Source of the DNA: Naegleria gruberi | Lineage: Eukaryota | Direction: 5' to 3' (one strand) | NCBI GenBank assembly: GCA_000004985.1 | Contig: GG738877.1 | DNA length: 64,000 nucleotides | In this document: positions 13,614-40,394 of the stretch, one piece after another | Layout of the letters: each line of letters opens with the position of its first letter | Position numbering within the stretch: position 1 is the stretch's first letter | Notes under the pieces: model-generated | Databases searched by the model: none | The model's input: the letters and a program-made list of their open reading frames with translations, nothing else | Told to the model about the DNA's origin: nothing | Made by a program: the position numbers and the translations under genes

Positions 13614-15032
13614 ATGAATCCACAAAACAATAACTTATTTGATAATAATCCATCCACACCATCCACTCCAACCTCCTCCTCGAGGAAAGCCAATGGTAAC
13701 AGATACCGTCCAACTAATCTCATAATTCCAAGTGTAATAGATGAAAACCATGTTGTAACGGTGACTTGTTTAACAAACAATAGCTCTGTCACTAGTCACG
13801 GTAATGCCTCAATGACTCCTTGTGAAAGTTGTCATTCGAGTTGCCTTTCTAGTGTTTCCTCTCCTTCTCAAACTCCTTTTGTACAAACATCCACGCTTCT
13901 CAATCAACATGAGAAGGAATTCTACAACTCTATGGGTTTTGAACTGGTAAAATCTTCGGTAGCCAAAGGAATTACAAGTACCGTTAATTTGGTGAGAAGA
14001 ATTGCTCCATTTTCAAATTGCACTGAAGAAGAAGTTGTTGAACAAGAATGTGGTGGAGAAGCTGCTGTTTCCTCAATTCCAACCTCCTCGTCTGGTTCCT
14101 ACTCTAAACCAGATCAATATCCAATCTCTAATTCATCCCTCTCCCCTGATAACGAAGACTCCCAGGAATCTCTCTACGAAGAATCAACTCTCTTCGCTGA
14201 AAAGGTTATTAGTCTCAATTCTGAACATACCAATCACTCACTGACAGACATTGAGCGTGAAGAACGTTGCTTATTAAAGTGTACTTCTTCACCTTACATT
14301 GTCAACTTGTACAAATCAACTCGATCAAGCAAGTACCATCACCGTTTCTTCTTGGAATACATTGATGGGTGTACAATTGCAGATTTAATAGAATCAAGAA
14401 GAGATGCCATTTGTGAGAAGGAACTTGCCTTGATTGCTCAACAATTATTACGAGCTTTAGTATTCCTTAAAGAGAAAGGATTACTTCACAGAGATATTAA
14501 AAGCGAGAATATTATGCTCTGTAAGAATGGTTGTGTCAAGTTGATAGACTTGGGACTTGCCATCGAATTGGACCAAGTCAATAATAACCGAGTTACTTCA
14601 CCTCATTCCAGTTCTACCTCTACAGAACCAGAGTCAGTTATCACAAAAGGTACCTACTCATTCATGTGCCCTAACAAATTACTAACTGGCAAGGAAAGTT
14701 TTGAAAGCGATTTATATAGTATGGGAATGACTCTTTTGGAACTCTTCCTTGGTCATTTACCTTTCGAATTTGATCAACAAGCAAACACTGATAGTTCATT
14801 CCCATTGGCAGACATTGTATCATTCGATATCGAGGAATATTGCATGCCTCTTGTTGAATCTGGAAGAATGAGCAATGAATTGAAACATTTTTTGACTTTG
14901 TGCATGAACAGGGATTGTGAAATGAGACCACACGTCCATTCATTACTTTCTCACCCATTCCTTTCTCATACCTTTGAAATGAGTCATTCTGAATTGTGTA
15001 TTTGCTTGAAAAGGCTTTTTACAGAGCGATGA
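13614..15032 (+). CDS. Ser/Thr protein kinase (472 aa) with an S/T-rich N-terminal region.
   Basis: ATG in an A-rich context. C-terminal kinase motifs: HRDIKSENIML, VKLIDLGLA and subdomain IX-XI-like residues. Confidence 0.8.
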   Translation: MNPQNNNLFDNNPSTPSTPTSSSRKANGNRYRPTNLIIPSVIDENHVVTVTCLTNNSSVTSHGNASMTPCESCHSSCLSSVSSPSQTPFVQTSTLLNQHEKEFYNSMGFELVKSSVAKGITSTVNLVRRIAPFSNCTEEEVVEQECGGEAAVSSIPTSSSGSYSKPDQYPISNSSLSPDNEDSQESLYEESTLFAEKVISLNSEHTNHSLTDIEREERCLLKCTSSPYIVNLYKSTRSSKYHHRFFLEYIDGCTIADLIESRRDAICEKELALIAQQLLRALVFLKEKGLLHRDIKSENIMLCKNGCVKLIDLGLAIELDQVNNNRVTSPHSSSTSTEPESVITKGTYSFMCPNKLLTGKESFESDLYSMGMTLLELFLGHLPFEFDQQANTDSSFPLADIVSFDIEEYCMPLVESGRMSNELKHFLTLCMNRDCEMRPHVHSLLSHPFLSHTFEMSHSELCICLKRLFTER

Positions 15033-15082: not shown

Positions 15083-16126
15083 TTATCTGTAGAGTTGCAC
15101 TCTATTGTTGTAAGTGTCAGCCACTAGTAACGTCTCACTAGCATCATCAAAATAGACTCCATAGGGTTTTCTGAATTGAGAATTAGTTACTCCAAAAGTT
15201 CCAAAACTGTTTACAAACTCCTCCCTCTTACAATCGAAAAGTTGTACTCTGTGATTCGATTCATCTGCCACAAATATCAAACCTTTCTTTTTTGATAATG
15301 AAATTCCTCTTGGCAATTTTAAATTACAAAATGAAGAGCCTCCCTTACCAAATGATTTCTGGGAATATTCAAGATTATTTGATGTGATAGATTTTTTAAA
15401 TTTCACAATTCTAAGACAATGACCATTCATATCGCTCACATATAGAGATTTTGTAGAATCATCAAAATCTATAGCAAATGGTTTTCTGAATGGATTATTG
15501 TTTTCTAATTGTATATTTCCTATTCTGTTCACTTCTGTTCCATCTTTAGAATTCAACATTATTACTGACTCAGAGGAAGTGTCACAAACTAAAATTATAT
15601 TCGAATTATTTCTATATGAAACACACAACCCAGTTGGATATCCTACACTAATATATTTCCAATATGTATGGCCAGATTTAGTACCCTTACGTATCTTTAG
15701 TTTCAATACTTGATTCATAGAAGTTCCAACAATCAAGGCATCCCTTTCCTCTCCTTTTTCTACACACAACGACAATGGTTGACCACTTAGCAACTGGATA
15801 GTCTCCTCCAAAATCCTTGTCAATAAATTAAATCCCAATATTCTTCCATTGTAATAATCACCAACAAGTATCAATTGTGAAGAATGAGAAACTGTAACAC
15901 ACCAAGGACAAGATATCAATCCATCTCCAATCGTACCAACATATCGGAATCCAATTGCAGAAAGTGATCTCATCCTCGAACAGAGTAACTGAAATAATTC
16001 CCTATCATCAAATAAATGTTGATTACATTGTTTTAATGATGACGATGAATTAATAACTTTTTGATTTGGAATATTTGAATAATTTTCCTTCTGTTGCACA
16101 AAATCCACCAGAATAATTCTTGTCAT
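15083..16126 (-). CDS. NHL-repeat (six-bladed beta-propeller) protein (347 aa).
   Basis: Repeated NHL-type motifs: SNHRVQLFD, YNNRVQLYR, LYVSDMNGHCLRIV, LIFVADESNHRV. ATG follows an 8-A run. Confidence 0.75.
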   Translation of the reverse strand: MTRIILVDFVQQKENYSNIPNQKVINSSSSLKQCNQHLFDDRELFQLLCSRMRSLSAIGFRYVGTIGDGLISCPWCVTVSHSSQLILVGDYYNGRILGFNLLTRILEETIQLLSGQPLSLCVEKGEERDALIVGTSMNQVLKLKIRKGTKSGHTYWKYISVGYPTGLCVSYRNNSNIILVCDTSSESVIMLNSKDGTEVNRIGNIQLENNNPFRKPFAIDFDDSTKSLYVSDMNGHCLRIVKFKKSITSNNLEYSQKSFGKGGSSFCNLKLPRGISLSKKKGLIFVADESNHRVQLFDCKREEFVNSFGTFGVTNSQFRKPYGVYFDDASETLLVADTYNNRVQLYR

Positions 16127-16260
16127 TTTTTTTTGTAACTTGAAATCTTCTACTATTTATACCTTCTAGGTAAGTTTATTATCTTTCCTAGACAAATGTT
16201 AAGAAAATTGTTGTTACTCAAATACTACCAATCAAAGTGTTTACAATTTTTTTGAGATGA

Positions 16261-18792
16261 ATGAACTCTAAACAGCAAAAGGATTTGAAATTTATTTTTA
16301 GATCACAAAAAAATAGCACACAAATGACAACAGAAGCAACAACATTACTTCCTGATTATGTTTTGAGAGCCGAGTGTAAGGGACATATTGATCAGTGTCG
16401 TACGATTTGTGCTAATCCACTTGTGGATGGAGGTATTGTCACAGGATCATTGGATTGTACAGTGAAAACATGGGCTCCTAATCCAAATTATAAGGAGGAA
16501 CAAACTAATATCGAAAATACAATGTTTGATGGTGAGGAATTGAACAATGCTAGAAAGCAAAGTGAATATCAATGCTCTTTGACAATGGTTGGACACGAAA
16601 AATTCATCACATCTATTGATTATCTTCCTGATCATTATGTAGTTTCCGGATCACACGACAAATCACTCATTGTTTGGAATGTTGTTGATGGAACTCCAGT
16701 GAAGAGTTATCCAAATGCTCATAGCAATGCAGTCAGTTGTTTATCTGTTGACAAATATACAAACACTATAATTTCAGGTTCTTGGGATAAGTAAGTACTT
16801 TTAGTTTTTAAAAAATCGATTTATTCACACTTAACAGATCTGCAAAGACATGGCATTTTGATAAGGATGCAGCCATTTCCGAATTGAAGGGACATGAACA
16901 AAACGTTTTGTGTGTTCTAGGCTTACAAAATGGTATTATTATCACTGGTAGTGGCGATGGAAGTATTAAATTCTGGGAAAATGGAAAGGAAACTCGTGAC
17001 ATTGCTGCTGCTCATTCATCATGTGTTAGATCTCTCAAAGAATTACCAGGTATTGGATTTTTATCAGCATCAAATGATGGTACTGTTAAAACCTGGACTT
17101 TACAAGGAGATTGTATTGGACATATTCAAGCACACAATACATTAGTTTATTCTGTTGAAGTAGCACCATCAGGAGAAATCTTGACAGCCAGTGAAGATAA
17201 AACTGTTAAAATTTGGAGAGGTGATTCTTTGGTACAAACCATTGAACACCCAGGATGTGTCTGGCAGGTTGTTTGTCTTCCAAATGGTGATATTGCTACA
17301 GCTTGTTCTGATTGTGTTGCCAGAGTATTTACTAAAAATCCAGAAAAGGTTGCCAATCCACTAATTATTCAAAGCTTTAATGATAATATTGCAAATTCAA
17401 AGAAAAAGAAGAGTGGAGTTGATCCAACTAAATTGACTACAGAATTAGCCTTGCAAAATACAAAGGGTACATCAGATGGTGAAATCAAACTTGTCAATAA
17501 TAGTGGTATTCCAGAAGCTTATTCTTGGAATGCTGCTCAACAAAAGTGGGATAAACTTGGTGAAATTACAGATGGACCAGGTGTAGGAGATGGATTCTCT
17601 CAAAGAACTTTCTACAATGGTAAAATGTATGATTACGTTTTCGATGTAGAACTTGAACATGGAAGTGGAATGAAGACTTTCAAACTTCCATATAATAAGG
17701 GTGATAACCCATATTTTGCTGCTCAACAATTTATTTGGGATAATAATCTTGGACAAAACTATTTGGAACAAATTGCTCGTTTCGTTATGGATAATGCTGA
17801 TGCTCATGATACTGTACCATCAGACTTTGTTGCTGGAGATCCTTATACTGGTCACCAAAGAGAAACTTTCGCTGCCAAGCGTCCAGGTACTGAATCAAAC
17901 CCAACTACTTCCTCTCCATTCTCTCAAGAACAAGATAAATATCAAAAGGAATTAGAAGAAAGAGAAAGACAAAAGAAGGTCAAACATTTCCCAGCTACCA
18001 CCAAGGTCTTTGATCAAGCCAACTATGATGGTATCCTTAAAAAGCTCAATGAATTTAATGAAAATGTAAAGACATCTGATGCATCTCTTGCTCTCTTACC
18101 AACTGAATGCACTACTTTGACACAATTATGTACAATTCTCAAGGCCGGTCAAGGTGAAAAAGTCACTTTAGCACATGTTGCTGTTGTTGAAAAAGATGCT
18201 TAACTGGCCAATTGAAAAAGTTTTCCCAGCTGTAGATTTATTCAGATTATTGATTTTAGCCAACCCAGTTGCTAATCATTACTCTGAACAATATAAGAAT
18301 GGCACCAATATTTTGATCAAATTGGTAACCTTGTGCTTTAACCCAACAACCACATACGCTGCTTTGAAGATGCTGGCTTTTAGAGCTTTAGCTAACATGT
18401 TCTATACACAACAACTTAAATTCATTATTTCCAAGCATGCCCAGATCGTCATTGACAATGCTGCTAAATCTGTTGATACGACCAATGCCAACATGAGAGC
18501 AGCCTATTCATACTTTTTGCTTAATACTGCTGTCAGTATTCACACAAACACTCAATCAGATGCATTGAAAGAGAAACTCTTGGCCTTAATCATCCAAGGT
18601 ATTCCTGATGAAACAGATCACAATATCCTGTATGACTTGTTGTGTGCTGCTGGTACAGTTTTGACAGGAGCTAGCGAATCTATAAAGGCTATTGGAAAAC
18701 AACACATTCAGACATTTGCACAAAAATCAGCCAATCCAACAGCTAGAGTAGCAGCTGCTGCTTTCCAAGTTGTTTCCCTGTTAAACCAATAA
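16261..18792 (+). CDS. PLAA/Doa1/Ufd3 homolog (WD40 + PFU + PUL domains). Exons 16261..16790 and 16838..about 18160, then a frame discontinuity near 18160-18200 before the PUL-domain part 18172/18196..18792.
   Basis: WD40 N-terminus (LRAECKGHIDQCR..., SGSWDK). The GTAAGT intron 16791..16837 (47 nt) restores the frame (..SGSWDKSAKTWHFDKDAAISELKGHEQ). The PUL start LNWPIEKVFPAVDLFRLLIL lies in a +1 frame relative to the PFU part (see findings). Confidence 0.75.
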
Positions 18793-18836
18793 ATTGTACA
18801 TTTACTCATTATCTTTATTTTGGAAGATAATTTAAA

Positions 18837-20196
18837 TTATTCGATTCTCAGTAAATACTCTGATTGAAAAGCCATTGTTACAAAATTTAGATCCTTGTCA
18901 GCTTCAGCTGTTTTCCCAATTCCATTAAGCAATTGAGATCTAAACTCAATTAACGTTAGGAGTTTGTATTCATTTTCAACTGCAGATCCATCAATATTCT
19001 TAATTCCTTGATCAACAATGGAAATAGCGTCTTCAAGTGAATTTGAAGAGCATGCTTGTGTAATGTAAATTGTATAATTTTTTGGGTATTTCTTGCTTAA
19101 TTCCTCTAATTCTTCCTTGAATTTTTGTTTCGAATAGGCTTTATAAGGATTATTCCTTAGCATTTTTTCCAGAGCCGAGATTCGTTCAACTTCCATTACT
19201 TCCACCTGATCAGGGTTTGTGACAAATTTCAATACTGTCTCACTATCTTCCACAATCTGAGCGTAATTATCCGTTCTAGCATTTGTAGACATTCTGTTAG
19301 AGTAAACAAGTATATAGTTAGAGCAATTTTCAACAGCTTTACCTAAATATTTAAGTGCTGTTTCAGATTCCGTGTTAATATAACAACATCCAATATTGTT
19401 ATAGCATAGTGCTCTTCCCACCTTGAGTATTCTTTCTTTATGCTCTGGATAGTAAAAATTTGGAACATTACAACCATTTTCCAAGCTTGTGATTGCATTT
19501 TCAAATTCTTTGATTGCATCAGCATATAAATCAATATCCATCATAACACAACCAGCGTTGAAGATTGAAAAGAATGGTGTAAAAATATCAAACAATGAAT
19601 ACATTGTTTCTGCCATATTTCTTGATATCGAATAAAATGATTGATAATATTCCAATACTGTTTCCTTTTCAATTTTAAAAGCACTCAAATATAAATCTTT
19701 AGATTTTCTATAATTTTGTGCAACCTATTATTATTTAATTTCAATATGAAAGTAAATTAAAAACTGTTGTAATATTATATACATACCTCCTCTATATATC
19801 CATCACATAACAAAGTCCAAAATGGATGTCCTCTACAAACGAATTTTGTGATCGTGACAGCCCGAAGCATTTCCTTTTGATTACTTGTCTGAAAATACAG
19901 TAGTGCTCTCTTATAATAAGCCTCTATTAAATTAATAATAATACCAATATAATTCCTATCATCACTCCGAACTAAAACTAACCTGGTTGGAATGGGCATA
20001 AATCAATAGCCTTCAATAATTCATCATGTGCTGCTTTAAAATTCCTTTCAAACCGAACGGAATCAACAGAAATCATCACTTGACGATACTTTTTTCCGAT
20101 TTCTATTAATTCCTCCTCTTTCCAATCTTTTAGAGATGGTGCTCCATTGATCAATCCAGTTTCAGCGATTGGAGGAGCCAATCCAATGTGTTGCAT
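18837..20196 (-). CDS. Hypothetical TPR-like/helical-repeat protein. Three exons (minus strand): 19983..20196, 19787..19923, 18837..19724.
   Basis: ATG at 20196 follows an 8-A run. The GTTAGT donor plus ..ttaatag acceptor give a 59-nt intron that reconciles ORFs 19978..20196 and 19775..19999. The GTATGT donor plus ..aataatag acceptor give a 62-nt intron joining ORF 18837..19688. Both junctions are in frame. Confidence 0.6.
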
Positions 20197-20250
20197 TTTT
20201 TTTAAATAAATATTAGAAAATATATGTTGTAAATTTTTATTATTTAAAGA

Positions 20251-23200
20251 TTACAATAAATGAGTGATTACTTCCTTGCCACTTCCCTTGATGAGTAATA
20301 TTTTGGAGGAAATATTTTGAGTGAGATGTTTCAAACATAGTACATAATCCAAATTTGAAAGATTTGATGTTAATGAGGGAAGGTTTACAATGACAAGTTG
20401 TGTATCTTTTGGAGTGGAATGTTGTCGAATGATGGTATTGATTCTTGATGAGGTATTCAAATAGTCAGTAATGGTCAGGTTGGGAACATTCGAATATTGA
20501 GTACTCAATTCGTCAGTTGGGGTTGTTGGATTATTTTCAATATTAATGGAAACTTCATCTGCATTTTGTTGCGGTGTCGATGGAAAATTGAAAACCAGAG
20601 AATCTAATCCTTCATGATACGACATGGATCTCACATCTCTAAAGATGGACTTGTTAATTTTGCTTGAGGGTTTCAACATTCGTTCTCTTTCTCTTTGGTC
20701 ATGTGTCACAACGAATGGAGAAACATCGTGTGGTCTCATGTAGAGAACGTGACACTCTGCTTCAAATCTTAAATGATATAGGATATCGTGAACTCCTTCC
20801 TTAATCATTTCTAAACTAGAAGTATCATCAACAACAGTATAGATTCGTATTTTGCACTTTCTCCAAACTTTGTGTTTTTGGAGTAAGAAAGTTATGAGTA
20901 ATTCGAGTCCTCCTTCATAAATAATCCAATAGAGATCTATGAATCCACATTGTTCTTCCTCTCCAAATTCTCCCTTAGCTATAATAACAGCTTTTCTACT
21001 AATTTCTGCGTATTTTAACATTTCAACAAAGTTTCTAGCACTGATCTTGTCATCACTCATTGGGAATCCAGAAACAATTGTATTGGGAGTTAGAGGACCC
21101 AATCCACAATTCTGAATCAAATGATTGATACCCTCCTGAAAATTCTTAGCCACAATGACTTGAGAAAATCCAGTAATTGACTTCTCTTTCATTTTCAGGG
21201 AAAGGGCAAGTTGTTCCTTTCGAGCAATCTTGAACTTTTTCTTGTAATTTCCTTCAATGATGGCTGCAACTACACACAGACCTTGTCCCTTCTTGAGTTG
21301 GTTTGCAACATTGAGAATATCAGCATGTGAAATGGTATTGTTTGGAAGAATCTTTACGAGACACAAGAGTTGAGGTCTCCAATTCGACTTCTCGTGATAG
21401 GAACTGGTGGAGGAGTTAGGGTTTGTTTCACATGAATAGAGAGCATTGAGGGCAGTTTGCAATTTAACTCCACTCATAGCATCGCCAAATGCATTGGTTT
21501 CATTACTGACCTCAATAAGAATGTACAACAAGAGGCCAATGATGGCACATAACAGAGTCCAATACCATCCAATTAAAAACATGCAAATAGCACATACAAA
21601 GAATCCAAATACCCCTAACGACCAATGATAATACATCCACCTAGGCCTCCAATTAGGGCTAATACTGGCAACAAAAGTCGAAATATTGAGGAAAGCAAAT
21701 GAGAAGAGAATGAGCATGGCAATAAACGTTGAGATACTTTCCAAATTACCTAGAAAAAGGGGGATGATAGCAAGGAGAGCAGAAAATAAAGTAGCCTTCC
21801 TCATATTCACTGAACCCTTGCTTGTTAAATAGTGCAATGGAATGAATGAAATAATATTCTCGTCAACAATGGCTTGTACCACTCGAGGTGCAACCACAAG
21901 AGCTTGGATTCCTTCTCCCAATATTGCAATCAACATGCCAACTTTTACAATATAGGTTCCAATCGATAAACCAAAATCTGGAAAGGCAACCAGAGCAAAA
22001 TAAGCTGTATTCTCTCTCATCTCATCTCTCTTTCCAACAAAGCTCAACAGAATGAAAATTAGTACATACACAAAAGTGGAGGTAAGCAGTGAGGCAATAG
22101 TTCCAATAGGAATATTTCTTTGAATATGTTTAACATGCCCTGATCGATTGATTCCTGCCAAAATTCCAACTACACTTGGAAATATGACAGCCATCACTGA
22201 AAAGAAATCTTGTCCATGCTGGAATTGAGGTGGAAAATTTGCAACAAAATTATTCCACTTTGCTGATGTTATATGATATTCTGTTTTGACAGTTACAAAA
22301 CATCCAATGATAAATAACAGAATTGTAATGAATGTTGCAATAATAAAGATCAATTCAAATCTTACAACATGTCTGAAACCAATGAAAACAAGTAGGAATA
22401 TTAAAAATAGGAATCCAATGGCTAGAATAATTAAATCCCAGTAAGGATGTTGTAAATCAGAATCTATCATTTTGAAATACGGATAGTATATTCTGATGGT
22501 TGACATTAATAAATCTGCAGCTGCAAATGAGTGAAGGGACAATAGGAAAATGAAACCAACAAAATAAATCAGACCCAAACTTCCAGCAAATTGATTTCCA
22601 AGCACTCTTGACATAATGGCTATCGTTCCACCAGATTTTAACAATCCATTTGTAACTACACTTGTTAAGCTTAACCATGTTAATATAGCACAAATTACTG
22701 ATATGAAAATATACAAGAGGGAGAATGCCAATCCAGCATTTGCCAAAATCCAAGGTACTTTCAAGAAAAGAATAGTACCAAGCACTGAAGAAATGCAAGG
22801 AATATAAACTCCCTCAATTAGTCCATACTTTTTCTCTTCTTTTGGTTTGGTATTTGGTGAAATAGCAGCAGTACTGGAAGAAGGAGGAATTTGATTGGAA
22901 GGAGATGTTATCGATTCTTGTTGTAGAGAAACCACAGAACTTCTTCTCTTTTCCAGAGTTTGAGACATTCTCGAAAGTGGATCAGTGGAAATAATTTCAT
23001 TGAGGGTACTTTTAGATTTTTCATCTTGTAAAATGTTTACAATAGATGGTCTATTGTAAAACCCTTTCATTTCTTTGTCCAAATTTGAAATAGGTATAAT
23101 ATCGCTTTCCTTAAAACTTGTTTGGGAAATTGCATCCTCATCCTCTGTATGTATAGATAAATCATCACCACCAGAAATTACATTATCTAAATCCCACTTT

Positions 23201-25843: not shown

Positions 25844-28800
25844 ATGTCTCGCAATAATGTCCACAATGGATCCACTGGTTGGACTCGTCGAGTAACCAAT
25901 CATCCAATGGACCACTCTTCCTCTTCTTCATCGTATAGTAATGGATCACCTGATCAACAACAGCAACAACAAGGAACACTTCCTCCTCCCCTACCACCAA
26001 GACGAGCAACCACAATTTCAACAAGACAGCAAGGGATTGAAATATCGAACGGAAATTCATCAACAAATAATACTTTAGTTTCTCAATTTGGTAATAGAAG
26101 TGATTTTTCTAGTAACATTCTTACAAGAAACAAATACGAACCCCATTCATCAACCGAGAGTAACAACAATCAATCTGCCTTTAATAATGAGAGTTATCAA
26201 AGTTATGCAGGTGTTGATGATCTAAATAGTACTTCTTTCAATAGATTTGAAACAAATCATCCATCTAACCAAACAAATGCTCCACCTAGCATTCCACAAA
26301 GGAAACCCAAATACCATTCACCCTCTCTGCTCAACAAATCTCCTCCTCCACCAATACCTCAAAAATCTATTAACCACATCCAACATGATTCTCCTTCAAA
26401 CAGCTCACCAACCTCTCCAAAATTCCTCAATAGAAATCCTCCCCCACCAATTCCAGGATCCCTCAAAGGGATAGACACTGACATTCGTTTAAAGGATGAT
26501 GAACAAAAGGAGGAGGTATTACCCAAACGTCAAGATATTGTGTCCTCTTCCATCAACATCAACTTTTCGGGTGATAGCACTGATGAGAACCATACGAAAC
26601 CAAAGAAAAATCGACCACCATCCATTCCATCATACTCTAGAGGATTTAATTCTGGTGCTGCTAATAGTAATTATTCTTCTATTGATCAAAGTTTGACTGG
26701 TAATAGTGCTGTTACAACAACTCCACCACCTTTGCCAATCAGAAAGATTGTTAACGATAAGAAACTTCTCGACTCACCAAACAGTGTAAATAGTGTTGGA
26801 AGTAATAGTAGTAGTTGCAGCTCATCTCTCAGTGATTCGTGCAACATTCTCAGTTATTTACATTCCAAACAGGGAGGAAATTTGAATATGGATTACCTAG
26901 ATACAGGCGACGAAGGTTCTCTGATGCAAGATGTGGAGTCAGAAGGAAATGATGAGTTTAGTTTTCCAAGCAATTCATATGAGGCAGAAAACGATCTGTC
27001 ATCACCTGGAAATGGTCAATCAGCCAAACCAATCGATTTTTCAGTAGACGAGGCACTCTTCAGACGAGTCAACTCAAAAGTGAAAACACTCTCTTTAAAT
27101 GGCATTTCTCGTTCTTCTTCATTGACTAGAAAAACATCTAGAACCCTTCACTACTCTTCACAAAACAAATCACACAACACCTCCTTTGTTGAATATCAAC
27201 AACAACATAATCACTCACCAACTGCTGCTTACACCTCTTCCGATCAATTTGGAAGTAGTAGTAATTCAACCAGCACAACAATTTTACCATCCGAAAGAAT
27301 TGAACAAGCAATGGAAATTGAAACGAAAAACAAACCTTGGTCACAAACAGATAAGACCTTGTCAGCTGAGGAAGAAGAATTATTGGCAAATTCAAGAGTT
27401 TCTCAACCTCATCTTCTTCAAGCCTACAAAGTTTTTAACACACCATTCCATATTATGAAACGAGTACCTGTAAAATATATGCGAGCACCTTTCCAGCCTA
27501 CTTTTGATGAAAACGATGGAATTGACCATAGTCATAATTATTGTGATAATTCAGAATCTTCTGTTTCTTCAGCACCAAAACAATCTTCTTCCGACTCCAG
27601 TGATGATGAATCGTCAACTAATACTGAAGAAGAAAGTATTACCACACCAAGAAATAGAAAGAGTTACTTTTTGAAATTGTCAGAAATTGATAAAATTTCT
27701 CTTGGTCAAACAGAAGATTCAGACCATCACACTATTCAGCAATCTCCTAGAAATAGTGTAACACCTAGAGCATCAATAAGAAGTAAAACAATTATTGGTA
27801 TGATAGGAGGAAACACGGAAAAGAAGGCAGTTGACGGTTTTGATGAAATTCAAGTTTTGGAAGCAAAGAAAAGTCTTGTCGAATTTGCCAAATATTCTGC
27901 TGGTAAAAAGAAGACTGACATTATTGAAAATATTGAACCAAAGAATGGAACTGTAATGGTAGTTAAAAACCCAGGATTAGATGCTGTGACAGAGACCATT
28001 ACTTCAAAAACACGTTTGATGAGTTGTTTAAAACCTGATTACATGTTCAAACCTTTGGAAGCTTCAATGTGCCAAAGAGTTTCTGATTTAGCTTATCCAG
28101 TTAAAAGAAAGACCAAATTCTTCCTTCAATGTACAAGTTTAAGATTTGAAAATATTCAAATGAAAGATAGAGAATTATTATTCTCATCAGTTGCCTTATA
28201 CGATATTCAATATGGTAGAAAATTATCAGAAGACTACCATTTCCATTTATTGCCTAATCAACAATTAAGCGATCTTCCACCTCTATTCAGAGATGAACTC
28301 AAAATTTATGAAGATGCAAGAGATATTTATTCTTCAATAATAGTTTCTCCAAAAAAGTTATTCACTGTTAGTTATCCAAATGACGAGGTCTATCTCGTAG
28401 CAACAATCTATAGAATTCCTACATCATCTATCCATGAGGCTGTTAAAATGTATTCTAAAGAAAATAAGAATATTGATAAGTGGTCTGATCAATACAATCA
28501 ACTTAAGGCCAAGCTAATTAGATTCAGACAGCCATTTTTATTTGGATTTACATCTTTATTTGTTAAGGAAATGATCAATGTTAAAGGGAAACAGGTTGAA
28601 TCTTTCAAATTGGAAGGTTCAAGATATGACATCAAACCATTCTATGAAGTTGATGGCGATTTTAAAAATCCAGTAGATTTTGTGACAATTATTAGAAACT
28701 CAATCAAGGATAAGAAAATTAAGAATAATCAAGTTCAAGGATCTATGCTGTTCACTGCTGAACTTCTTTCAAATTCTAGTTCTCAAAGTAATTATGAAAT

Positions 28801-31800
28801 TCAGCAAAAAATCCAAAATTCTAAATCAAGATTCTTAACAAGTCAAGGATCGAGATCTGATTTGGATTCCTCATTTGGGTCCCCAAGCTCAAGCTCTATT
28901 CTCGGATCAAGTACAGCATTCAGCTCACCAAGATCTGTTAATGAAAGTATAATATCTAGTTATGAGCATGATGGAACTGAGAGCCTTGTAAATCAAGAAC
29001 AACTCAATCAAGTTCAAGAATTTCCACTCCTCTCCTCTAACTATCCTAATCTATCCATGCAAAATACTTTGTTTATTTATCCTCAAAGTTTTATTATTGA
29101 AGGTGCATCCTCAGCAAAGAACATTTTTGCTGAAGTTTATTTTAGAGAAACAGACACAGCTCCTCCTAAAGTTGAAGATATTGATGGAAAAGCTGAAAAA
29201 AGATTTATTGCTTGGTTAAAGAAGGAGAGAACAACTTCTTTAATAACTTCCCTTTCGGTCGATTCGAGACAGCAAATATTATTGGATGAATTTAGATTGG
29301 AACTTCCAATGTATCCTATGGAAAAGCACCATTTATTATTTGTCTTTTACCATGTTGATATTGACAATAAGCATTCAAAGAAATTGGAATATGCAAATAG
29401 TTCCTTCGATTCAAGAAAAGAATTCTTTTCAACATCTGATAGAGCTATTATTGGATATGCTTTCCTCCCACTCACTAAGAGTATTCAACCAGATGAATGT
29501 GAGTACACTTTGAAACACAACCTTATCTACTTGCCTGATTGTAATGATGATATTACAATCTACAAGAAGGACTCTTTTAAGAGTAATTATTTGTCTGAGA
29601 ATAGTCTCAAACCTCTAAAGAGTTCAAAAATCAAAGTTAAAACCAATTTAGTATCGACTATACACCCTAGAGATCCAACTCTTGCATTATTTTATGCTTC
29701 TCTGACTGATCTCTACACAGCCGCTCCTGGTAAAACAATTGAAATATTGGATTTCTTGGAAGGTTTTGTTCTTCAAAAGTTTAACGAAATTGAATTCTCA
29801 GAGTTGTTACCTCACTTCCCAATTTTAATGAACCTACTTTTTGAATTGATGTGCAGAGTTTCTGAACTTACAACTGATGAACAACAAATTGAAAGCTTGG
29901 AAAGCTCTGTCTTTGAATCATTACTTGTTTGCCTAAGAGGATCCTACCACTTTACCAAACATCACACAAGAAGTAACAAGTATTTTACTAGTTATGTTAA
30001 ATTCATGTTTGAAAACATCAAGGGTAATCCACTTTTCTTGAATTTACCAAGAATAATAACAAGATTTATTTATGTTCCAGAAGGCAAGGAACTTGAGCCA
30101 GCAGAAGAAGGCAAATATATTAAGGAAATGAACAGGCTCAGTAAAAAGTATGGCAAGTCAGTCATAAAGAAAACTACCAGTTTGGAAAAGGATAAAAAGG
30201 AATACGAAAAGAAAAAGAATGAAGTATCTCCTCATGATCCTATCAGATTTTCTTGGTTCCTTTTCGATATTACTATCAAGAGTATAATTCTTTCAGGAGT
30301 GCCTAGCTCAGAAGATCACCACACTATGGATTACTTTACAGAAGTACCTGAAGACCTATTCTTCATATCATTGAAACAATTAATTGACAACTTTAATACA
30401 TGTGTCAACAAGTTAATGTTGAGTGATGGTACTGGAAGAAATAACATTGGGTTGAATGGTAATAGAAACTTGGCATTGTTCATTAGAGATTTGATCCCTA
30501 TTCTCAAAAGAGAACATGTGCTCAAACTGGTAAAGAAATACTTTAAATTCTTTAATGGATCGGATGAGAAACAACTTCGTTTGAAGAGTGAATTCATTAC
30601 TATCCTCAGTGACTATGAGCATTGGATTCCTATCAACAATTTATCATTGGAAGGAGGAAACTTTGGTGTCAAACATTTCAGCACGTTATTCTATCAAATT
30701 GTGGACAGTAAGAAGGATAGATTAATTAAGAAGATGACAAAGGTCTTACTCAACCACCTTTGTAAACTTGATTTTGACTCTAGATATGTTCATGAAAACT
30801 CAAAAGCCAATGTTTGTGAAATTTATCTCATCTTTGTTGATTTGTTCTTTGAAAAAGATGAGTACCTCACAATTTTCCAAGATGATGAGCTGTTTGTTGT
30901 ATTTTCATGCATTTTGTTGTGGATAATGAGAGGCTTATCAAAGCAAAGGTTAATTTCTTGGTTCAAGGTTCTACCATTCTTCAAGATTTTGAATATTTTG
31001 AACTTTTTGGACTATGTAACTATTGCTATTAACAATCTCGATTATGATCCAAAATCTAGAGTTGAAGATGATAGATCTCTTCGTACCGAAGTTTCCCTTG
31101 TTATTAATTACTTGATTTCTGTAATTGTATCAAATGTCACCTCAGACGGAGGATTTATTGATGAGCTGCAAATGCAAAGCGACAATATTGATCTTCTCTC
31201 TAATATCCAACTTGCTGATCCAAGTTTACTGAGACAAAGACAACTTGTATCCTACTATGAGGCAAAAAGCTTAAAGCAACAAGCTCCTCTTATTGGTCTA
31301 TTCTTTAGACAGATTTGTAGAGTTTTGATGAACAGTGTTCTTCAATTAACCTTGAGAAAGGAATTAGACTTGGTATATATTGTATTTAGAGAATCACTTT
31401 TACCTCTTATCAAAGAATGTACCAGTAAACTTGTGGTAAATGAGCTCTATGATCCAAACATTCCAAAGAAACAGAGAATTCCTATTGCTGAAAAGAGACA
31501 AGTCGAACAAAAGTGGAGATGGTTATTGGGTGCTGTTATGCTTCACTCAGGATTTACATCTGAAGAAGAGCAAAATGCTTATCCAATTGTCAAAGAATGT
31601 CAAAAACTTTTATTAGAACCTTTCAATAATGAACTGTTCAATGTGCAATTAGATAGTACCGATATTGAGGATGGTGATTTGCTATTGAACAATGAAGAGC
31701 ACAATATCAAAGCAGGTACATTCAAAAAACTTGTCGAAAGATTGCTTGACGTGGATACAAATCAAATTGACAAGGAGAGTCACAAGTATGGAGAAATCTT

Positions 31801-32983
31801 CCTCCTCACTTGCGCCTCTTTCACTCAACCAATTAATTTACTCACCCAACTTATTGAAATATTTAAAACAGCCGAAGAAACAGTCATCAAGCTCAGAGTT
31901 GAACAATTTATCAGCAAGTGGGTTAGATTCGGATTCCATGATTTTGACAATAATGTTATTGCCAAGCTTGTTACATTCCTTTCCAATATTTCTGGAGTTA
32001 CTCAAAAGAAGATTAAGAAATACATTATCAAACACTTCTTGAATGTCAAGATGGATATTTACACAGATGTTACAGCAGTACCACCAAATCCTCACATTCC
32101 AAAGAATATTCCAAAAGAAAAATTGGAAGAACCCCAAATGGATATCAGAAAGTGGAAGGAGGCCAAAAAGTTTACCAAACAATTAGATAATCCATTTGAT
32201 GTCAAGTTTGAACTTTTGGATTGGCCAAGTTTAGAAATTGCTAGACAATTGACAATCATTGAGGCAAAACTCTTCAAAAAGATTGAACCAAAAGAATTTT
32301 TCGGCTCAGCTTGGACTGACAAAGAGTACAAGCAAGAACTTGCACCAACACTGTGTGCAATAACTGAGAGAACTAACAATGTTAGTTTCTGGGTTAGAAA
32401 CAAGATACTTTTGGAGCCAAATTTGGAAATTAGAAAGAAAATTATGAAGAAATTTGTGGACATCCTTAGAGAGTTGAAAGAACTTCGAAACTATACCTCA
32501 ATCATTCAAATCACATCTGCATTTAATTCTGCCGAGATTCACAGACTGAAAAAGACAAAAGAAGGACTCAGCAAGCAAGATTTGGAACTTGTTGAAGAAT
32601 GCAGTAATTTGGTGAACAATAATTCCAAGGCATTGAGAGAACAATTGGAACGAGAAGTTATCATTAATGGTGCCCCAGCAGTTCCTGTTGTAGCAATCTA
32701 CTTTACTGATTTGGTATTTATTGAAGATGGTAATTTAGATTATTTTGAGCACAAATTGAACAAGAACAAGAAGCTAATCAACTTCCAAAAGAGAAGACTC
32801 TACTATAATACTGTCAATACTATCAAGACTCTTCAAACCAAATCCAAATACATTCTACAACCTCTTCCTTATCTTCACTATGTACTCAAGGAAGAAATTG
32901 TGCAAAATATCAAGACAGATGAGAAGGCCCTCTTTGATTTATCTCTCAAAGTTGAACCAAGAGCTCCAGCTACTAACAAATAA
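25844..32983 (+). CDS. Ras guanine-nucleotide exchange factor (RasGEF N-terminal domain plus CDC25-homology domain), 2379 aa, single exon.
   Basis: The C-terminus has a RasGEF_N-like block (TFKKLVERLLD...) and a CDC25 catalytic domain (LLDWPSLEIARQLTIIEAKLFKKIEPKEF..., ITSAFNSAEIHRLKKT, VPVVAIYFTDLVFIEDGN). The N-terminal 900 aa are S/N/P-rich with repeated PPPxP motifs. Confidence 0.85.
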   Translation: MSRNNVHNGSTGWTRRVTNHPMDHSSSSSSYSNGSPDQQQQQQGTLPPPLPPRRATTISTRQQGIEISNGNSSTNNTLVSQFGNRSDFSSNILTRNKYEPHSSTESNNNQSAFNNESYQSYAGVDDLNSTSFNRFETNHPSNQTNAPPSIPQRKPKYHSPSLLNKSPPPPIPQKSINHIQHDSPSNSSPTSPKFLNRNPPPPIPGSLKGIDTDIRLKDDEQKEEVLPKRQDIVSSSININFSGDSTDENHTKPKKNRPPSIPSYSRGFNSGAANSNYSSIDQSLTGNSAVTTTPPPLPIRKIVNDKKLLDSPNSVNSVGSNSSSCSSSLSDSCNILSYLHSKQGGNLNMDYLDTGDEGSLMQDVESEGNDEFSFPSNSYEAENDLSSPGNGQSAKPIDFSVDEALFRRVNSKVKTLSLNGISRSSSLTRKTSRTLHYSSQNKSHNTSFVEYQQQHNHSPTAAYTSSDQFGSSSNSTSTTILPSERIEQAMEIETKNKPWSQTDKTLSAEEEELLANSRVSQPHLLQAYKVFNTPFHIMKRVPVKYMRAPFQPTFDENDGIDHSHNYCDNSESSVSSAPKQSSSDSSDDESSTNTEEESITTPRNRKSYFLKLSEIDKISLGQTEDSDHHTIQQSPRNSVTPRASIRSKTIIGMIGGNTEKKAVDGFDEIQVLEAKKSLVEFAKYSAGKKKTDIIENIEPKNGTVMVVKNPGLDAVTETITSKTRLMSCLKPDYMFKPLEASMCQRVSDLAYPVKRKTKFFLQCTSLRFENIQMKDRELLFSSVALYDIQYGRKLSEDYHFHLLPNQQLSDLPPLFRDELKIYEDARDIYSSIIVSPKKLFTVSYPNDEVYLVATIYRIPTSSIHEAVKMYSKENKNIDKWSDQYNQLKAKLIRFRQPFLFGFTSLFVKEMINVKGKQVESFKLEGSRYDIKPFYEVDGDFKNPVDFVTIIRNSIKDKKIKNNQVQGSMLFTAELLSNSSSQSNYEIQQKIQNSKSRFLTSQGSRSDLDSSFGSPSSSSILGSSTAFSSPRSVNESIISSYEHDGTESLVNQEQLNQVQEFPLLSSNYPNLSMQNTLFIYPQSFIIEGASSAKNIFAEVYFRETDTAPPKVEDIDGKAEKRFIAWLKKERTTSLITSLSVDSRQQILLDEFRLELPMYPMEKHHLLFVFYHVDIDNKHSKKLEYANSSFDSRKEFFSTSDRAIIGYAFLPLTKSIQPDECEYTLKHNLIYLPDCNDDITIYKKDSFKSNYLSENSLKPLKSSKIKVKTNLVSTIHPRDPTLALFYASLTDLYTAAPGKTIEILDFLEGFVLQKFNEIEFSELLPHFPILMNLLFELMCRVSELTTDEQQIESLESSVFESLLVCLRGSYHFTKHHTRSNKYFTSYVKFMFENIKGNPLFLNLPRIITRFIYVPEGKELEPAEEGKYIKEMNRLSKKYGKSVIKKTTSLEKDKKEYEKKKNEVSPHDPIRFSWFLFDITIKSIILSGVPSSEDHHTMDYFTEVPEDLFFISLKQLIDNFNTCVNKLMLSDGTGRNNIGLNGNRNLALFIRDLIPILKREHVLKLVKKYFKFFNGSDEKQLRLKSEFITILSDYEHWIPINNLSLEGGNFGVKHFSTLFYQIVDSKKDRLIKKMTKVLLNHLCKLDFDSRYVHENSKANVCEIYLIFVDLFFEKDEYLTIFQDDELFVVFSCILLWIMRGLSKQRLISWFKVLPFFKILNILNFLDYVTIAINNLDYDPKSRVEDDRSLRTEVSLVINYLISVIVSNVTSDGGFIDELQMQSDNIDLLSNIQLADPSLLRQRQLVSYYEAKSLKQQAPLIGLFFRQICRVLMNSVLQLTLRKELDLVYIVFRESLLPLIKECTSKLVVNELYDPNIPKKQRIPIAEKRQVEQKWRWLLGAVMLHSGFTSEEEQNAYPIVKECQKLLLEPFNNELFNVQLDSTDIEDGDLLLNNEEHNIKAGTFKKLVERLLDVDTNQIDKESHKYGEIFLLTCASFTQPINLLTQLIEIFKTAEETVIKLRVEQFISKWVRFGFHDFDNNVIAKLVTFLSNISGVTQKKIKKYIIKHFLNVKMDIYTDVTAVPPNPHIPKNIPKEKLEEPQMDIRKWKEAKKFTKQLDNPFDVKFELLDWPSLEIARQLTIIEAKLFKKIEPKEFFGSAWTDKEYKQELAPTLCAITERTNNVSFWVRNKILLEPNLEIRKKIMKKFVDILRELKELRNYTSIIQITSAFNSAEIHRLKKTKEGLSKQDLELVEECSNLVNNNSKALREQLEREVIINGAPAVPVVAIYFTDLVFIEDGNLDYFEHKLNKNKKLINFQKRRLYYNTVNTIKTLQTKSKYILQPLPYLHYVLKEEIVQNIKTDEKALFDLSLKVEPRAPATNK

Positions 32984-33672: not shown

Positions 33673-34886
33673 TTTTTTTCTCTATTTTTTTTATGTTGCG
33701 AGTTTGGATCTGTGAATTGAGTAAAATAATAGTTCTTGATCCTCAAGAAACAGTATTGTTCACCATTTGTGACAAAAAAACACAACATACCAAAAACTGA
33801 CCAAAGATGCGAAAAGAAATTTTCATCTCGTATTCCTAAGTGGATTAAGGAGAGGTAATATTATTGTATGTATTTCACTATAACATGCCACCAGTATTAA
33901 ACAGCAACGTAATTTGAAATGTCAAGTAAAACCATAACTGATTCTTGCTCTTCCTATCCTTTCCCTCTTTTTCGGGCGAAATATCATTGGAGGAAGTAGT
34001 ATATCAAATTAAATTAAGAATCCCTTAATGAGGAAGGTATCATTTCTATCATCCATAAGAATCTTTAAGGAAAATAAAAGAGGATCGTTTTTCACAACTA
34101 CCACAAGCAGCTGAAGTTTATCATCTATTCACGCCTTATCCTTTTTAAAACCAACCTAGGTTCACTGTACATGATCCGTTCCAATTCAATTTTGCTGTTT
34201 TATTTAAAACAGAATTCAGCAAAAAATCAAGAAGCACTGCTAGAACGTGGTGCTTATCCTCAAAAGGCAAAGCAATAAAAAAAATCTTGTTACTATGTCT
34301 CTCGTACTGGTTTTGACTTCCTTCTTCACATATTTCCTTCTTAGGGCTGGTTTTTCAAAGATCTATTTAAGAGAAATCCATTGTAGTGTCTTGTCAACTT
34401 ACCAATCGCCTCCATATTAAGCCCTTTTTATGCCCTTAATGAAAACTCAAAGGTCCCAAAATGTCTTTTTGCTCGGCTTAATATAATTTGAACGAACCCA
34501 TTGTTTTTACTGCTCATACTTTTATGTACCTTACCGTGTCAGAATTAAGAAATAAAATGGAAATAACGAATCAACGAATTAACATTGATTTTTCTTAGGG
34601 CACACAAACCTATTCAGCTCTTAAAAAAAGAAGAGAATAATCTCGCTTCCCATATTTCCTTCTCCTTCTTATTTCCTTAAACCTTGTAAAACACAATTTT
34701 CAAAGCGAATTGTGTTTCTAACATTAGGAAGGTACTGAAATAAGAAAAATTAACTCTATTTTATCCACCTCACTATTAGACTCTCTCTCTTCTCTATAAC
34801 CAAAAATTCTTCATCAAGCACAAACTTGTTGCGAGAACACAAAAAAAGAACCAAAAGAAAAACAGCTCTAATGCTACACTGTGCGT

Positions 34887-36266: not shown

Positions 36267-36267
36267 A

Positions 36268-37911: not shown

Positions 37912-37978
37912 TTTTTTTAAATTAAAGTTTGAAGGTGTTGCAATATTTCTCTTGTTCTTTTAAATATTATTAAAACAC

Positions 37979-38001
37979 ATTAGAATGAGCATCATTCTAA
38001 T
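37979..38001. promoter_or_regulatory. Perfect 10-bp-arm palindrome (a TTAGAATGA gca TCATTCTAA t) in a divergent intergenic region.
   Basis: Read directly from the sequence. It lies between the SNW1 start (37911, minus) and the 38352 gene start (plus). Confidence 0.4.
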
Positions 38002-38351
38002 AAATAATACTCTCTTGGAGATATATCTGATTAATTTGTTTCATCATATTAACTTGGTTGATGATTGACTTGCTTGGAAAAATTTTATGCAAAAAATAAC
38101 GGAAAGGAAAATAAAGTTTTATTCAATTTCAAAATTATGCAACAATTGATTATTACACAATTAATATCATAAACAATTTCATCATCATTAAGTATCACTT
38201 TCAATGCAATTAATACTTTTATTGCAATTTACCTTCAGTGTGCCTCCGACAGGAATGAAGGCTAGAAGAAATGGTATTGTAAAAAAAAATATCAGCGAGG
38301 CTCGTCATCTTCTCTCACTCTACCGCTCCGCTTCAAGAAAATATTTATAAG

Positions 38352-39956: not shown

Positions 39957-40094
39957 AGGGAATTTTAAAATATAATAAAAAGGGCCCAGACTATAGAATA
40001 TAAAGTTCTTCCCAACCAAATAAAAAAACAATAAATTAAAAAAATTAATTCAATCAAATTTAAAATCAAAAATGGAAAAATAACAATTTAAAAA

Positions 40095-40394
40095 ATGAGC
40101 AAATTACTTGCTGTTGTTGTCGGCGCAGCTATTGTTGTTAGTGCAGCTGGTGGATGGAAGAAATTGTTGAGTGCTAGAAATGTTCAAAATGCTGCCAAAC
40201 ATATTCGTGAAACAAAGGAAGTTTTCTTGTCCGAACTTAGCAATAAGCCAACCACCGGAGAAACATCATCTCAAACTACTCTCCCACCAAATTATACTTT
40301 TACAAATCCATCGGAGACACCTAAACCACAAGAAAATGTGTCACCTACTACAAATTCATCCACAACAACAACAACACCTGAGAAGAAGGAATAA
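40095..40394 (+). CDS. Hypothetical small membrane-anchored S/T/P-rich protein (99 aa).
   Basis: ATG after aaaaa. N-terminal hydrophobic segment LLAVVVGAAIVVSAAGG, then a T/S/P-rich tail. Confidence 0.4.
   Translation: MSKLLAVVVGAAIVVSAAGGWKKLLSARNVQNAAKHIRETKEVFLSELSNKPTTGETSSQTTLPPNYTFTNPSETPKPQENVSPTTNSSTTTTTPEKKE

What the first reader, a model, noticed from the sequence alone, without database searches (positions are those of the whole stretch)
18140..18200. Frame discontinuity (+1) inside the conserved PLAA/Doa1 gene between the PFU and PUL domains
The PFU-containing frame (..TQLCTILKAGQGEKVTLAHVAVVEKDA*) stops at 18203. The PUL start LNWPIEKVFPAVDLFRLL, which resembles human ..INCPEDIVFPALDILRL.., is in the +1 frame, open from 18172. 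No canonical intron of normal size fixes it. The only GT..AG solution is a 34-nt intron (18162..18195, GTCACT...aaaaag), shorter and weaker than every other intron here. A 1-nt error in the A5 run at 18190-18194 would also restore the frame (..VAVVEKMLNWPIEK..). So the locus is either an assembly indel, a pseudogenising frameshift, or an exceptionally small non-consensus intron.
Basis: seen in the sequence. Interest (0 to 1): 0.5.

Follow-up and report, generated by a model that had tools for sequence, protein, structure and literature searches.

The report
One extra A truncates Naegleria PLAA
The reference genome of the amoeba Naegleria gruberi carries one extra A in a five-A run that breaks the reading frame of an otherwise intact PLAA/Doa1 gene; this is most likely a sequencing error or a strain-specific mutation, not an intron or any unusual biology.

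Summary
The frame break is real in the sequence. The 0 frame stops at TAA 18201-18203. The rest of the PUL domain continues in the +1 frame, open from 18172 to the stop at 18790-18792.

The window is Naegleria gruberi NEG-M, a Sanger draft. The reference annotation (XP_002675538.1/D2VK35, 610 aa) ends at that premature stop, so most of the PUL domain appears unannotated.

An independent metagenome contig (L006) is 99.36% identical over 2.96 kb. It has A4 where the window has A5 (18190-18194) and reads through as one ORF. N. fowleri and a third related species also have one continuous ORF here. Removing one A gives ..VAVVEKMLNWPIEK.., an 806-aa protein colinear with orthologs and with the solved human PUL structure 3EBB.

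The 34-nt intron is rejected: its donor is poor (GTCACT) and it would delete conserved residues. An old pseudogene is rejected: the downstream part shows no excess change. Programmed +1 frameshifting is very unlikely: the site is not conserved, the A-site codon is common, and there is no RNA structure.

What remains is a consensus error (about 0.62) or a recent, possibly heterozygous, NEG-M allele (about 0.33). NEG-M reads would settle it. Low interest; useful as an annotation fix.

The parts
16324..18792 (+). PLAA/Doa1/Ufd3 ortholog of Naegleria gruberi NEG-M. It encodes 806 aa once one A of the 18190-18194 run is removed.
   Evidence: reconstruction; 75% identity to N. fowleri P0001 and 64% to Willaertia P0002. 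WD40 + PFU + PUL; the window is N. gruberi NEG-M.
16324..16790 (+). Exon 1 (ATG 16324-16326), the N-terminal part of the WD40 propeller. It ends in phase 2 (AA|A).
   Evidence: Its 156-aa read-through ORF is identical to P0129.
16791..16837 (+). Intron 1, 47 nt, GTAAGT...CTTAACAG. This is the only real intron of the gene.
   Evidence: sequence. The frame changes from pos%3=1 to pos%3=0 and the joined peptide SGSWDK-SAKTWHF is colinear with N. fowleri SGSWDKTAKCWNL.
16838..18203 (+). Exon 2 as read in the annotated frame. It holds the rest of the WD40 propeller, PFU (17463-17804) and the first ~60 residues of PUL (from 18009), and ends ..VAVVEKDA*.
   Evidence: Exon 1 plus this stretch equals the annotated 610-aa protein EFC42794.1/XP_002675538.1/D2VK35.
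18169..18171 (+). TAG that closes the +1 frame upstream. Any frame change must therefore occur within 18172-18200.
18190..18194 (+). A5 run (GTT GAA AAA G ATG). One A is in excess relative to the sister-strain contig (GTT GAA AAG ATG). This is the lesion.
   Evidence: L006 lacks one A exactly here. L001/L002 read GTGGAAAAGATG and N. fowleri reads GTCGAGAAAATC.
18201..18203 (+). Premature TAA in the 0 frame, used as the stop codon of the reference gene model.
18196..18792 (+). +1-frame continuation MLNWPIEKVFPAVDLFRLL...SLLNQ* (198 aa plus stop 18790-18792). It holds the remaining ~180 residues of the PUL (armadillo-like) domain. No separate gene model for it was found.
   Evidence: about 76% identity to the same continuous ORFs of N. 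fowleri and L001. PUL residues 547-788, 137.7 bits; aligns to human PLAA PUL 3EBB. Neither this ORF nor its 205-aa extended form is in the protein collection as a separate protein.
18162..18195 (+). The 34-nt GT..AG interval proposed as an intron. Rejected: it is coding sequence (VTLAHVAVVEK).

Best explanation
The window is the Sanger draft reference of Naegleria gruberi NEG-M. The gene at 16324-18792 is an ordinary two-exon ortholog of PLAA/Doa1/Ufd3, with a WD40 propeller, a PFU domain and a PUL domain.

Shown: the frame break is caused by one extra A in the run at 18190-18194. The window reads GAA AAA G ATG where the functional gene reads GAA AAG ATG.

Inferred: the extra A is most likely a consensus or base-calling error in the 2010 draft. 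The organism then makes a normal 806-aa protein reading ..GEKVTLAHVAVVEKMLNWPIEKVFP... The annotation pipeline took the sequence at face value and ended the model at the resulting TAA, giving the 610-aa 'WD-40 repeat-containing protein' and losing about three quarters of the p97/Cdc48-binding PUL domain.

No splicing or recoding is involved.
For: Identity of the window: five window ORFs are exact matches to N. gruberi NEG-M proteins on a 394,700-nt scaffold. The assembly is listed as Sanger, 40.9 Mb, 35% GC (PMC9928731).

Annotation: exon 1 plus exon 2 up to TAA 18203 is exactly EFC42794.1/XP_002675538.1/D2VK35.

Independent sequence: ENA metagenome contig L006 (ERZ929261, k127_210463) is 99.36% identical over window 15715-18675, with 16 mismatches and 3 one-base gaps. 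One of those gaps is the missing A at 18190. Its gene call 1168-2958 is one 597-aa ORF running across the junction.

Relatives: the single ORFs of N. fowleri (L003 11176-12708) and a third species (L001 3260-4762) align to the window in frame 3 up to about 18250-18270 and in frame 1 from about 18202. At the DNA level the window differs from L001 by exactly one extra base.

Repaired product: 806 aa, against 807 in N. fowleri. PUL scores 137.7 bits over profile positions 9-263, whereas the truncated model scores 29.6 bits over positions 9-54. The repaired protein aligns without a gap to the solved human PUL domain 3EBB across the junction.

No decay downstream: N. gruberi-unique substitutions are 15/254 upstream and 11/195 downstream. 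The two downstream differences from L006 are both synonymous in the +1 frame.

Error versus real mutation is a prior argument, not a measurement. Draft 8x Sanger consensus error rates of roughly 1e-5 to 1e-4 per base (my own knowledge) predict about 0.01-0.1 indel errors in a 2.4-kb CDS. That is somewhat more than I expect for a surviving real frameshift in a conserved gene.
Against: No NEG-M read data could be examined, so the extra A may be real.

Sanger chemistry has no systematic homopolymer bias at A4/A5.

Across 11.1 kb compared with the sister strain there are 16 indel events. Only this one is a frameshift in clear coding sequence, and most of the others lie outside clear coding sequence, as real polymorphisms would. 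This shows that real one-base indels between these strains are common and does not point to a high error rate in this assembly.

Naegleria is described as mainly a heterozygous diploid (PMC9928731), which can shelter recessive loss-of-function alleles.
Confidence: 0.62

Rival explanations
1. The extra A is a genuine, very recent mutation of strain NEG-M, the axenic laboratory derivative, or of one of its haplotypes. That allele then encodes a 610-aa Doa1/PLAA that keeps WD40 and PFU but lacks most of the PUL domain. In yeast and human (established knowledge) PUL is the part that binds Cdc48/p97. An intact second allele may complement it.
For: The lesion is absent from a 99.36%-identical strain, so it arose within very little divergence, as a new laboratory or allelic mutation would. 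Real one-base indels between the two strains are frequent (6 single-base events in 11.1 kb). Naegleria is described as a heterozygous diploid. The intact downstream ORF is what a very young lesion would look like.
Against: PLAA/Doa1 is conserved with all three domains across eukaryotes (one search lists hundreds of full-length homologs). A homozygous frameshift is therefore a priori rarer than a draft consensus error. No second lesion is present. No read-level evidence is available.
Confidence: 0.33
2. Recoding. The A5 is real and the full-length protein is still made, either by +1 ribosomal slippage of tRNA-Lys on A_AAA_G (AAA to AAG) or by transcriptional slippage that drops one A. Either route yields exactly ..VEKMLNWP...
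For: A +1 shift at AAA-G would reproduce the ortholog-like peptide exactly. The shift window is bounded by stops in both frames (18169-18171 and 18201-18203), as at known recoding sites.
Against: The site is not conserved: a 99.36%-identical strain, N. fowleri and a third species all encode the region in one frame. The A-site codon GAU is the commonest Asp codon, at 45 per 1000 against 10 for GAC, so there is no slow codon. In-frame A_AAA_G occurs 11 times in five intact annotated ORFs of this window. There is no downstream RNA structure: z = -0.14 and 81 of 200 shuffles fold as well. A shift at the stop itself (GCU UAA C) would replace the conserved hydrophobic pair ML/IL/LL with DA. A5 is far shorter than the runs known to give efficient transcriptional slippage (my own knowledge). 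A full-text search for Naegleria plus 'ribosomal frameshifting' returned one paper, whose title and abstract concern wybutosine hydroxylation of tRNA-Phe and not recoding in Naegleria; I did not open it.
Confidence: 0.02
3. A very small spliceosomal intron (18162-18195, 34 nt), or another GT/GC..AG interval, restores the frame.
For: GT..AG boundaries exist and the frame is restored. Introns as short as 38 and 47 nt occur in this window.
Against: The donor GTCACT lacks the A at +3 and G at +5 found in all four introns inspected here (GTAAGT, GTATGT, GTACGT, GTAAGT). The interval encodes VTLAHVAVVEK, which aligns with VTTSHIVVVEK (N. fowleri), VTTNHISIVEK (Willaertia), VNNSHIAIVEK (P0003) and PTVQQLQILWK of human PLAA 3EBB. 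Relatives, including the 99.36% strain, have uninterrupted ORFs. In total 75 alternative intervals restore the frame equally well, so the match carries no information.
Confidence: 0.01
4. An old, decaying pseudogene of PLAA.
For: There is a premature stop in the annotated frame.
Against: There is only a single lesion. The 199 downstream codons are open in a 34% GC genome. There is no excess of lineage-specific substitutions downstream (11/195 against 15/254). Of 8 coding differences from the sister strain, 5 are synonymous, including both that lie downstream.
Confidence: 0.01

Closest known systems
PLAA / Doa1 / Ufd3 family (human PLAA, PUL structure PDB 3EBB; yeast Doa1), the ubiquitin-binding cofactor of Cdc48/p97
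   Same: The domain order WD40 propeller - PFU - PUL is the same, and both PFU and PUL score far above the Pfam thresholds. The protein is 75% identical to the N. fowleri ortholog and colinear with plant, fungal and animal homologs. The PUL region aligns to 3EBB at E = 7.7e-16.
   Different: Nothing differs at the protein level once one A is removed. As deposited, the reference sequence splits PUL between two frames and the annotated protein stops 60 residues into PUL.
Single-base homopolymer indels in draft assemblies that truncate gene models
   Same: There is one extra base in a short A run, a single lesion, an intact downstream frame, the correct length in a near-identical independent assembly, and a gene model that ends at the artefactual stop. 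Comparable frameshift corrections in heterolobosean genome and transcript sequences are described in bioRxiv 10.64898/2026.08.18.745565.
   Different: The assembly is Sanger-based, where A5 runs are not a notorious error source, so a real allele remains a serious alternative.
Programmed +1 ribosomal frameshifting (antizyme UCC-UGA-U, yeast Ty1 CUU-AGG-C, Euplotes AAA-UAA); these motifs are from my own knowledge
   Same: A +1 change of frame is needed within a short window bounded by stop codons, and an AAA codon is available for re-pairing on AAG.
   Different: The site is not conserved even at 99.36% identity. There is no slow A-site codon or stop at the position the protein alignment requires, and no RNA structure. 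It fails every defining feature that was tested.

Membership tests
PLAA/Doa1/Ufd3 | N-terminal WD40 beta-propeller | tested here: met
   Pfam WD40 scores 120 bits (cut-off 27), and many beta-propeller families match residues ~34-314.
PLAA/Doa1/Ufd3 | Central PFU (PLAA family ubiquitin-binding) domain | tested here: met
   PF09070 scores 124.5 bits against a cut-off of 26.2, over residues 365-478 and profile positions 2-111 of 113.
PLAA/Doa1/Ufd3 | C-terminal PUL domain, complete and in one reading frame | tested here: inconclusive
   With one A removed, PF08324 scores 137.7 bits over residues 547-788 and profile positions 9-263 of 277. In the sequence as deposited, only profile positions 9-54 are in frame, scoring 29.6 bits. 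The sister-strain contig has the domain in one frame as far as the contig runs (window 18675). Whether NEG-M itself does depends on read data.
PLAA/Doa1/Ufd3 | Binding of ubiquitin (WD40/PFU) and of Cdc48/p97 (PUL) | not testable with these tools
   This is a biochemical property, inferred only from homology to human PLAA 3EBB.
Spliceosomal intron (18162-18195) | Donor matching the local consensus GTAAGT/GTATGT/GTACGT | tested here: not met
   The donor is GTCACT. Four introns inspected in the window all have GTA.GT.
Spliceosomal intron (18162-18195) | The excised sequence is not part of the conserved protein | tested here: not met
   It encodes VTLAHVAVVEK, which aligns with orthologs and with human 3EBB. 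Relatives have a continuous ORF here.
Programmed +1 ribosomal frameshift | Shift site and two-frame organisation conserved in relatives | tested here: not met
   L006 (99.36% identical), L001/L002 and N. fowleri all use a single frame.
Programmed +1 ribosomal frameshift | Slow-to-decode A-site codon or stop codon at the shift position | tested here: not met
   The protein alignment places the shift at AAA|G. The A-site codon GAU occurs 45 times per 1000 and is the major Asp codon. The TAA lies two codons further on, and shifting there would give DA instead of the conserved ML.
Programmed +1 ribosomal frameshift | Stimulatory RNA element | tested here: not met
   Window 18186-18305 folds at -18.6 kcal/mol with z = -0.14. 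Rfam finds nothing in the window.
Processed or decaying pseudogene | Several disabling lesions or relaxed constraint after the lesion | tested here: not met
   There is a single lesion. N. gruberi-unique substitutions are 11/195 downstream against 15/254 upstream. Both downstream differences from L006 are synonymous.

The most novel reading that the evidence does not exclude
The A5 run is real in NEG-M DNA, and a full-length PLAA/Doa1 is still produced by +1 ribosomal slippage of tRNA-Lys on A_AAA_G or by polymerase slippage. This would be a newly arisen, strain-specific recoding event in a heterolobosean. A more modest variant, with probability about 0.3 and low interest, is that the axenic laboratory strain NEG-M carries a true loss-of-function allele that removes the Cdc48-binding PUL domain.
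Probability: 0.02. Interest if true: 0.55.

Novelty: not a real feature. Interest (0 to 1): 0.1.

Why it matters
The main value is in curation. The reference protein for N. gruberi PLAA/Doa1 (XP_002675538.1 / D2VK35, named only 'WD-40 repeat-containing protein') is truncated. It lacks most of the PUL domain, which in other organisms binds Cdc48/p97. Domain-based surveys of the ubiquitin/Cdc48 system could therefore wrongly score this model heterolobosean as lacking a complete Doa1/PLAA. The repaired 806-aa sequence can replace it.

If the extra A proves real in NEG-M, users of this standard laboratory strain should know that it carries a disrupted allele of a ubiquitin-homeostasis and endolysosomal quality-control factor. 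No new biological mechanism is indicated.

Tried and rejected
- tRNA scan and Rfam scan of the whole window found nothing.
- Exact look-up of the +1 ORF (205 aa from the first ATG) as a separately called gene: not on record. The 198-aa MLNWP... form, the repaired 806-aa protein and three fake-intron models are not in the collection.
- I tried to retrieve the NCBI annotation around the locus through neighbouring proteins (P0126, and ORF 13614-15032): not on record.
- One scan of JGI metagenome contigs with a degenerate pattern across the junction allowing A4 or A5 gave two identical chance hits in an unrelated sequence.
- A 149-aa query centred on the junction returned only 18 word-sharing candidates and no hit. 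So no near-identical protein fragment spanning the junction is in that database. The search was otherwise uninformative.
- The first homology search did not show the organism's own protein. Its 90% cluster is represented by a 156-aa exon-1 fragment (P0129) that my query did not overlap. I had first taken this to mean there was no model.
- Literature searches for PRJEB11402 and ERR1078381, to learn what the metagenome sample is, found no papers.
- I considered Euplotes-like frameshifting at stop codons and ciliate stop-codon reassignment at the outset. I dropped both once the organism was identified as Naegleria, where TAA is the stop of all six sampled genes.

Full report
**Observation**

Reading the sequence and translating all three forward frames confirm the finding.
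- The frame that carries the WD40 and PFU regions reads ..TQLCTILKAGQGEKVTLAHVAVVEKDA and stops at TAA 18201-18203.
- The +1 frame is closed by TAG 18169-18171. From 18172 it is open and reads ..KKMLNWPIEKVFPAVDLFRLL.. down to TAA 18790-18792.
- The A5 run is at 18190-18194.
- Any frame change must therefore occur within 18172-18200.

**Organism and annotation**

Five intron-free ORFs of the window are exact matches to Naegleria gruberi NEG-M RefSeq/GenBank proteins on a 394,700-nt scaffold. This assembly is listed as Sanger-sequenced, 40.9 Mb, 35% GC (PMC9928731).

The gene has two exons.
- Exon 1 is 16324-16790.
- The intron is 47 nt, GTAAGT...AACAG, at 16791-16837.
- Exon 2 starts at 16838.

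Exon 1 plus exon 2 up to the TAA at 18203 gives a 610-aa protein. It is exactly EFC42794.1 / XP_002675538.1 / D2VK35, 'WD-40 repeat-containing protein'. The reference annotation therefore accepts the premature stop. From the order of accession numbers along the scaffold, I infer that the downstream PUL-encoding ORF has no model of its own. Consistent with this, the downstream ORF is not in the protein collection as a separate protein, either as the 198-aa form from ATG 18196 or as the 205-aa form from the first ATG at 18175.

**What the gene is**

The best homologs are the full-length PLAA/Doa1 proteins of N. fowleri (75% identity, 807 aa), Willaertia magna (64%) and Acrasis kona (47%). Hundreds of plant, fungal and animal PLAA proteins follow.

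In the repaired protein, Pfam finds WD40 repeats, PFU at residues 365-478 (124.5 bits) and PUL at residues 547-788 (137.7 bits). In the annotated 610-aa protein only PUL profile positions 9-54 remain (29.6 bits). The break at residue 608/609 thus lies about 60 residues inside PUL, not between PFU and PUL as the finding's title says.

**Where the frame changes**

The orthologs read as follows at the junction:
- N. fowleri: ..GEKVTTSHIVVVEKILQWPIDKIFP..
- Willaertia: ..GDKVTTNHISIVEKLLQWPSDKVFP..
- P0003, an unnamed related species: ..GEKVNNSHIAIVEKMLNWPIEKVFP..

The window gives ..GEKVTLAHVAVVEK in frame 0 and MLNWPIEKVFP in frame +1. The switch therefore falls between the Lys codon and the ATG, which is in or next to the A run.

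At the DNA level L001/L002 read GTG GAA AAG ATG TTG AAT TGG and the window reads GTT GAA AAA G ATG CTT AAC TGG, exactly one extra base. In tblastn, the single continuous ORFs of N. fowleri (L003 11176-12708) and L001 (3260-4762) hit the window in frame 3 up to about 18250-18270 and in frame 1 from about 18202.

**Decisive comparison**

The 90% cluster of the annotated protein is represented by a 156-aa fragment, P0129, which is the exon-1 ORF. Its contig L006 (ENA ERZ929261, run ERR1078381, PRJEB11402, k127_210463, 2,958 nt) is 99.36% identical to window 15715-18675, with 16 mismatches and three one-base gaps. The gaps are at:
- 16189, upstream of the start codon;
- 16810, in an A run inside the intron;
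- 18190, where L006 has A4 and the window has A5.

The gene called on L006 at 1168-2958 is one 597-aa ORF that runs through the junction to the end of the contig.

The eight coding substitutions between the two sequences are five synonymous and three non-synonymous. The three non-synonymous ones lie at codons 510, 544 and 576, two of them in the linker between PFU and PUL. The two substitutions downstream of the break are both synonymous in the +1 frame.

**Rejected readings**

*Intron.* The 34-nt interval 18162-18195 starts with GTCACT. The four introns inspected in this window start with GTAAGT, GTATGT, GTACGT and GTAAGT and are 47, 62, about 45 and 38 nt long. The interval encodes VTLAHVAVVEK, which is conserved in all relatives and aligns with PTVQQLQILWK of the solved human PUL domain 3EBB. 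The relatives have no intron at this site. In addition, 75 GT/GC..AG intervals restore the frame, so the existence of one carries no weight.

*Old pseudogene.* There is only one lesion. N. gruberi-specific amino-acid changes are 15/254 upstream and 11/195 downstream.

*Programmed +1 frameshift or transcriptional slippage.*
- The two-frame arrangement is absent even at 99.36% identity.
- The A-site codon GAU is the commonest Asp codon, at 45 per 1000.
- In-frame A_AAA_G occurs 11 times in five intact ORFs of the window.
- The downstream 120 nt fold no better than shuffles, z = -0.14.
- Shifting at the TAA itself would replace the conserved ML with DA.

**What remains**

Either the extra A is a consensus error of the draft, or it is a real, very recent and possibly heterozygous mutation of the laboratory strain NEG-M.

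Two further contigs from the same metagenome sample were compared: L007 (window 34304-40215, 98.6% identical) and L008 (window 18632-20883, 98.8%). Across the 11.1 kb covered by the three contigs there are 16 indel events. Only the PLAA one is a frameshift in clear coding sequence, and most of the others lie outside clear coding sequence. Real indels are therefore common between these strains, and the assembly shows no sign of a high indel error rate.

Weighing typical draft Sanger error rates (my own knowledge, roughly 1e-5 to 1e-4 per base) against the small fraction of frameshifts that survive selection in a conserved gene, I put the odds at about 2:1 in favour of an error. This is a prior argument, not a measurement. 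NEG-M reads would settle it, and a large NEG-M RNA-seq data set exists.

**Verdict**

This is an ordinary single-base lesion in a reference sequence, with a truncated reference protein as its consequence. It is not a new kind of intron or recoding signal. Interest is low. The practical result is a corrected 806-aa PLAA/Doa1 model for N. gruberi.

Noticed in passing
L006 (window 15715-18675), L008 (window 18632-20883), L007 (window 34304-40215): One ENA metagenome assembly (ERZ929261, run ERR1078381, PRJEB11402) holds at least three contigs that are 98.6-99.4% identical to N. gruberi NEG-M. This looks like a closely related wild strain, or another haplotype, present in an environmental or mixed sample. 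No paper mentioning the project or the run was found.
   Followed up: partly
window 55486-55523 (- strand): A 38-nt intron (GTAAGT...GGTAG) sits in a ubiquitin-hydrolase (UCH)-like gene, at a position where N. fowleri also changes ORF. Very short introns with a canonical donor therefore do exist in this genome. A second intron of about 45 nt (GTACGT..TTTTAG) lies near 55180-55225.
   Followed up: partly
window 19725-19786 (- strand): The gene downstream of PLAA on the minus strand, whose N. fowleri counterpart has a faint TPR_2 Pfam hit, has a 62-nt intron (GTATGT...AATAG) in N. gruberi. The N. fowleri ortholog has one continuous ORF there (L003 13836..12796). This is an intron presence/absence difference between the two species. 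The sister strain has a 2-nt indel inside this intron.
   Followed up: partly
window 35522, inside ORF 34881-36266: There is a 12-nt in-frame indel (CCCTCTCAAACA) between NEG-M and the sister-strain contig L007 inside a coding ORF. Three more indels (1, 2 and 6 nt) lie at 34402-34651, upstream of that ORF, where the coding status is unknown.
   Followed up: no
window 36271-37920 and 54322-56803, compared with L003: Gene order differs from N. fowleri. The SKIP_SNW gene lies about 7 kb upstream of PLAA in N. fowleri but about 18 kb downstream in N. gruberi. The UCH gene is about 36 kb downstream. The HEAT-repeat gene that directly precedes PLAA in N. fowleri and in L001 has no tblastn match anywhere in the window.
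   Followed up: no
window 25844-32983 (+ strand): A 2,379-aa uninterrupted ORF whose exact translation is not in the protein collection. The annotated model presumably differs in its start codon or introns. I did not examine it.
   Followed up: no
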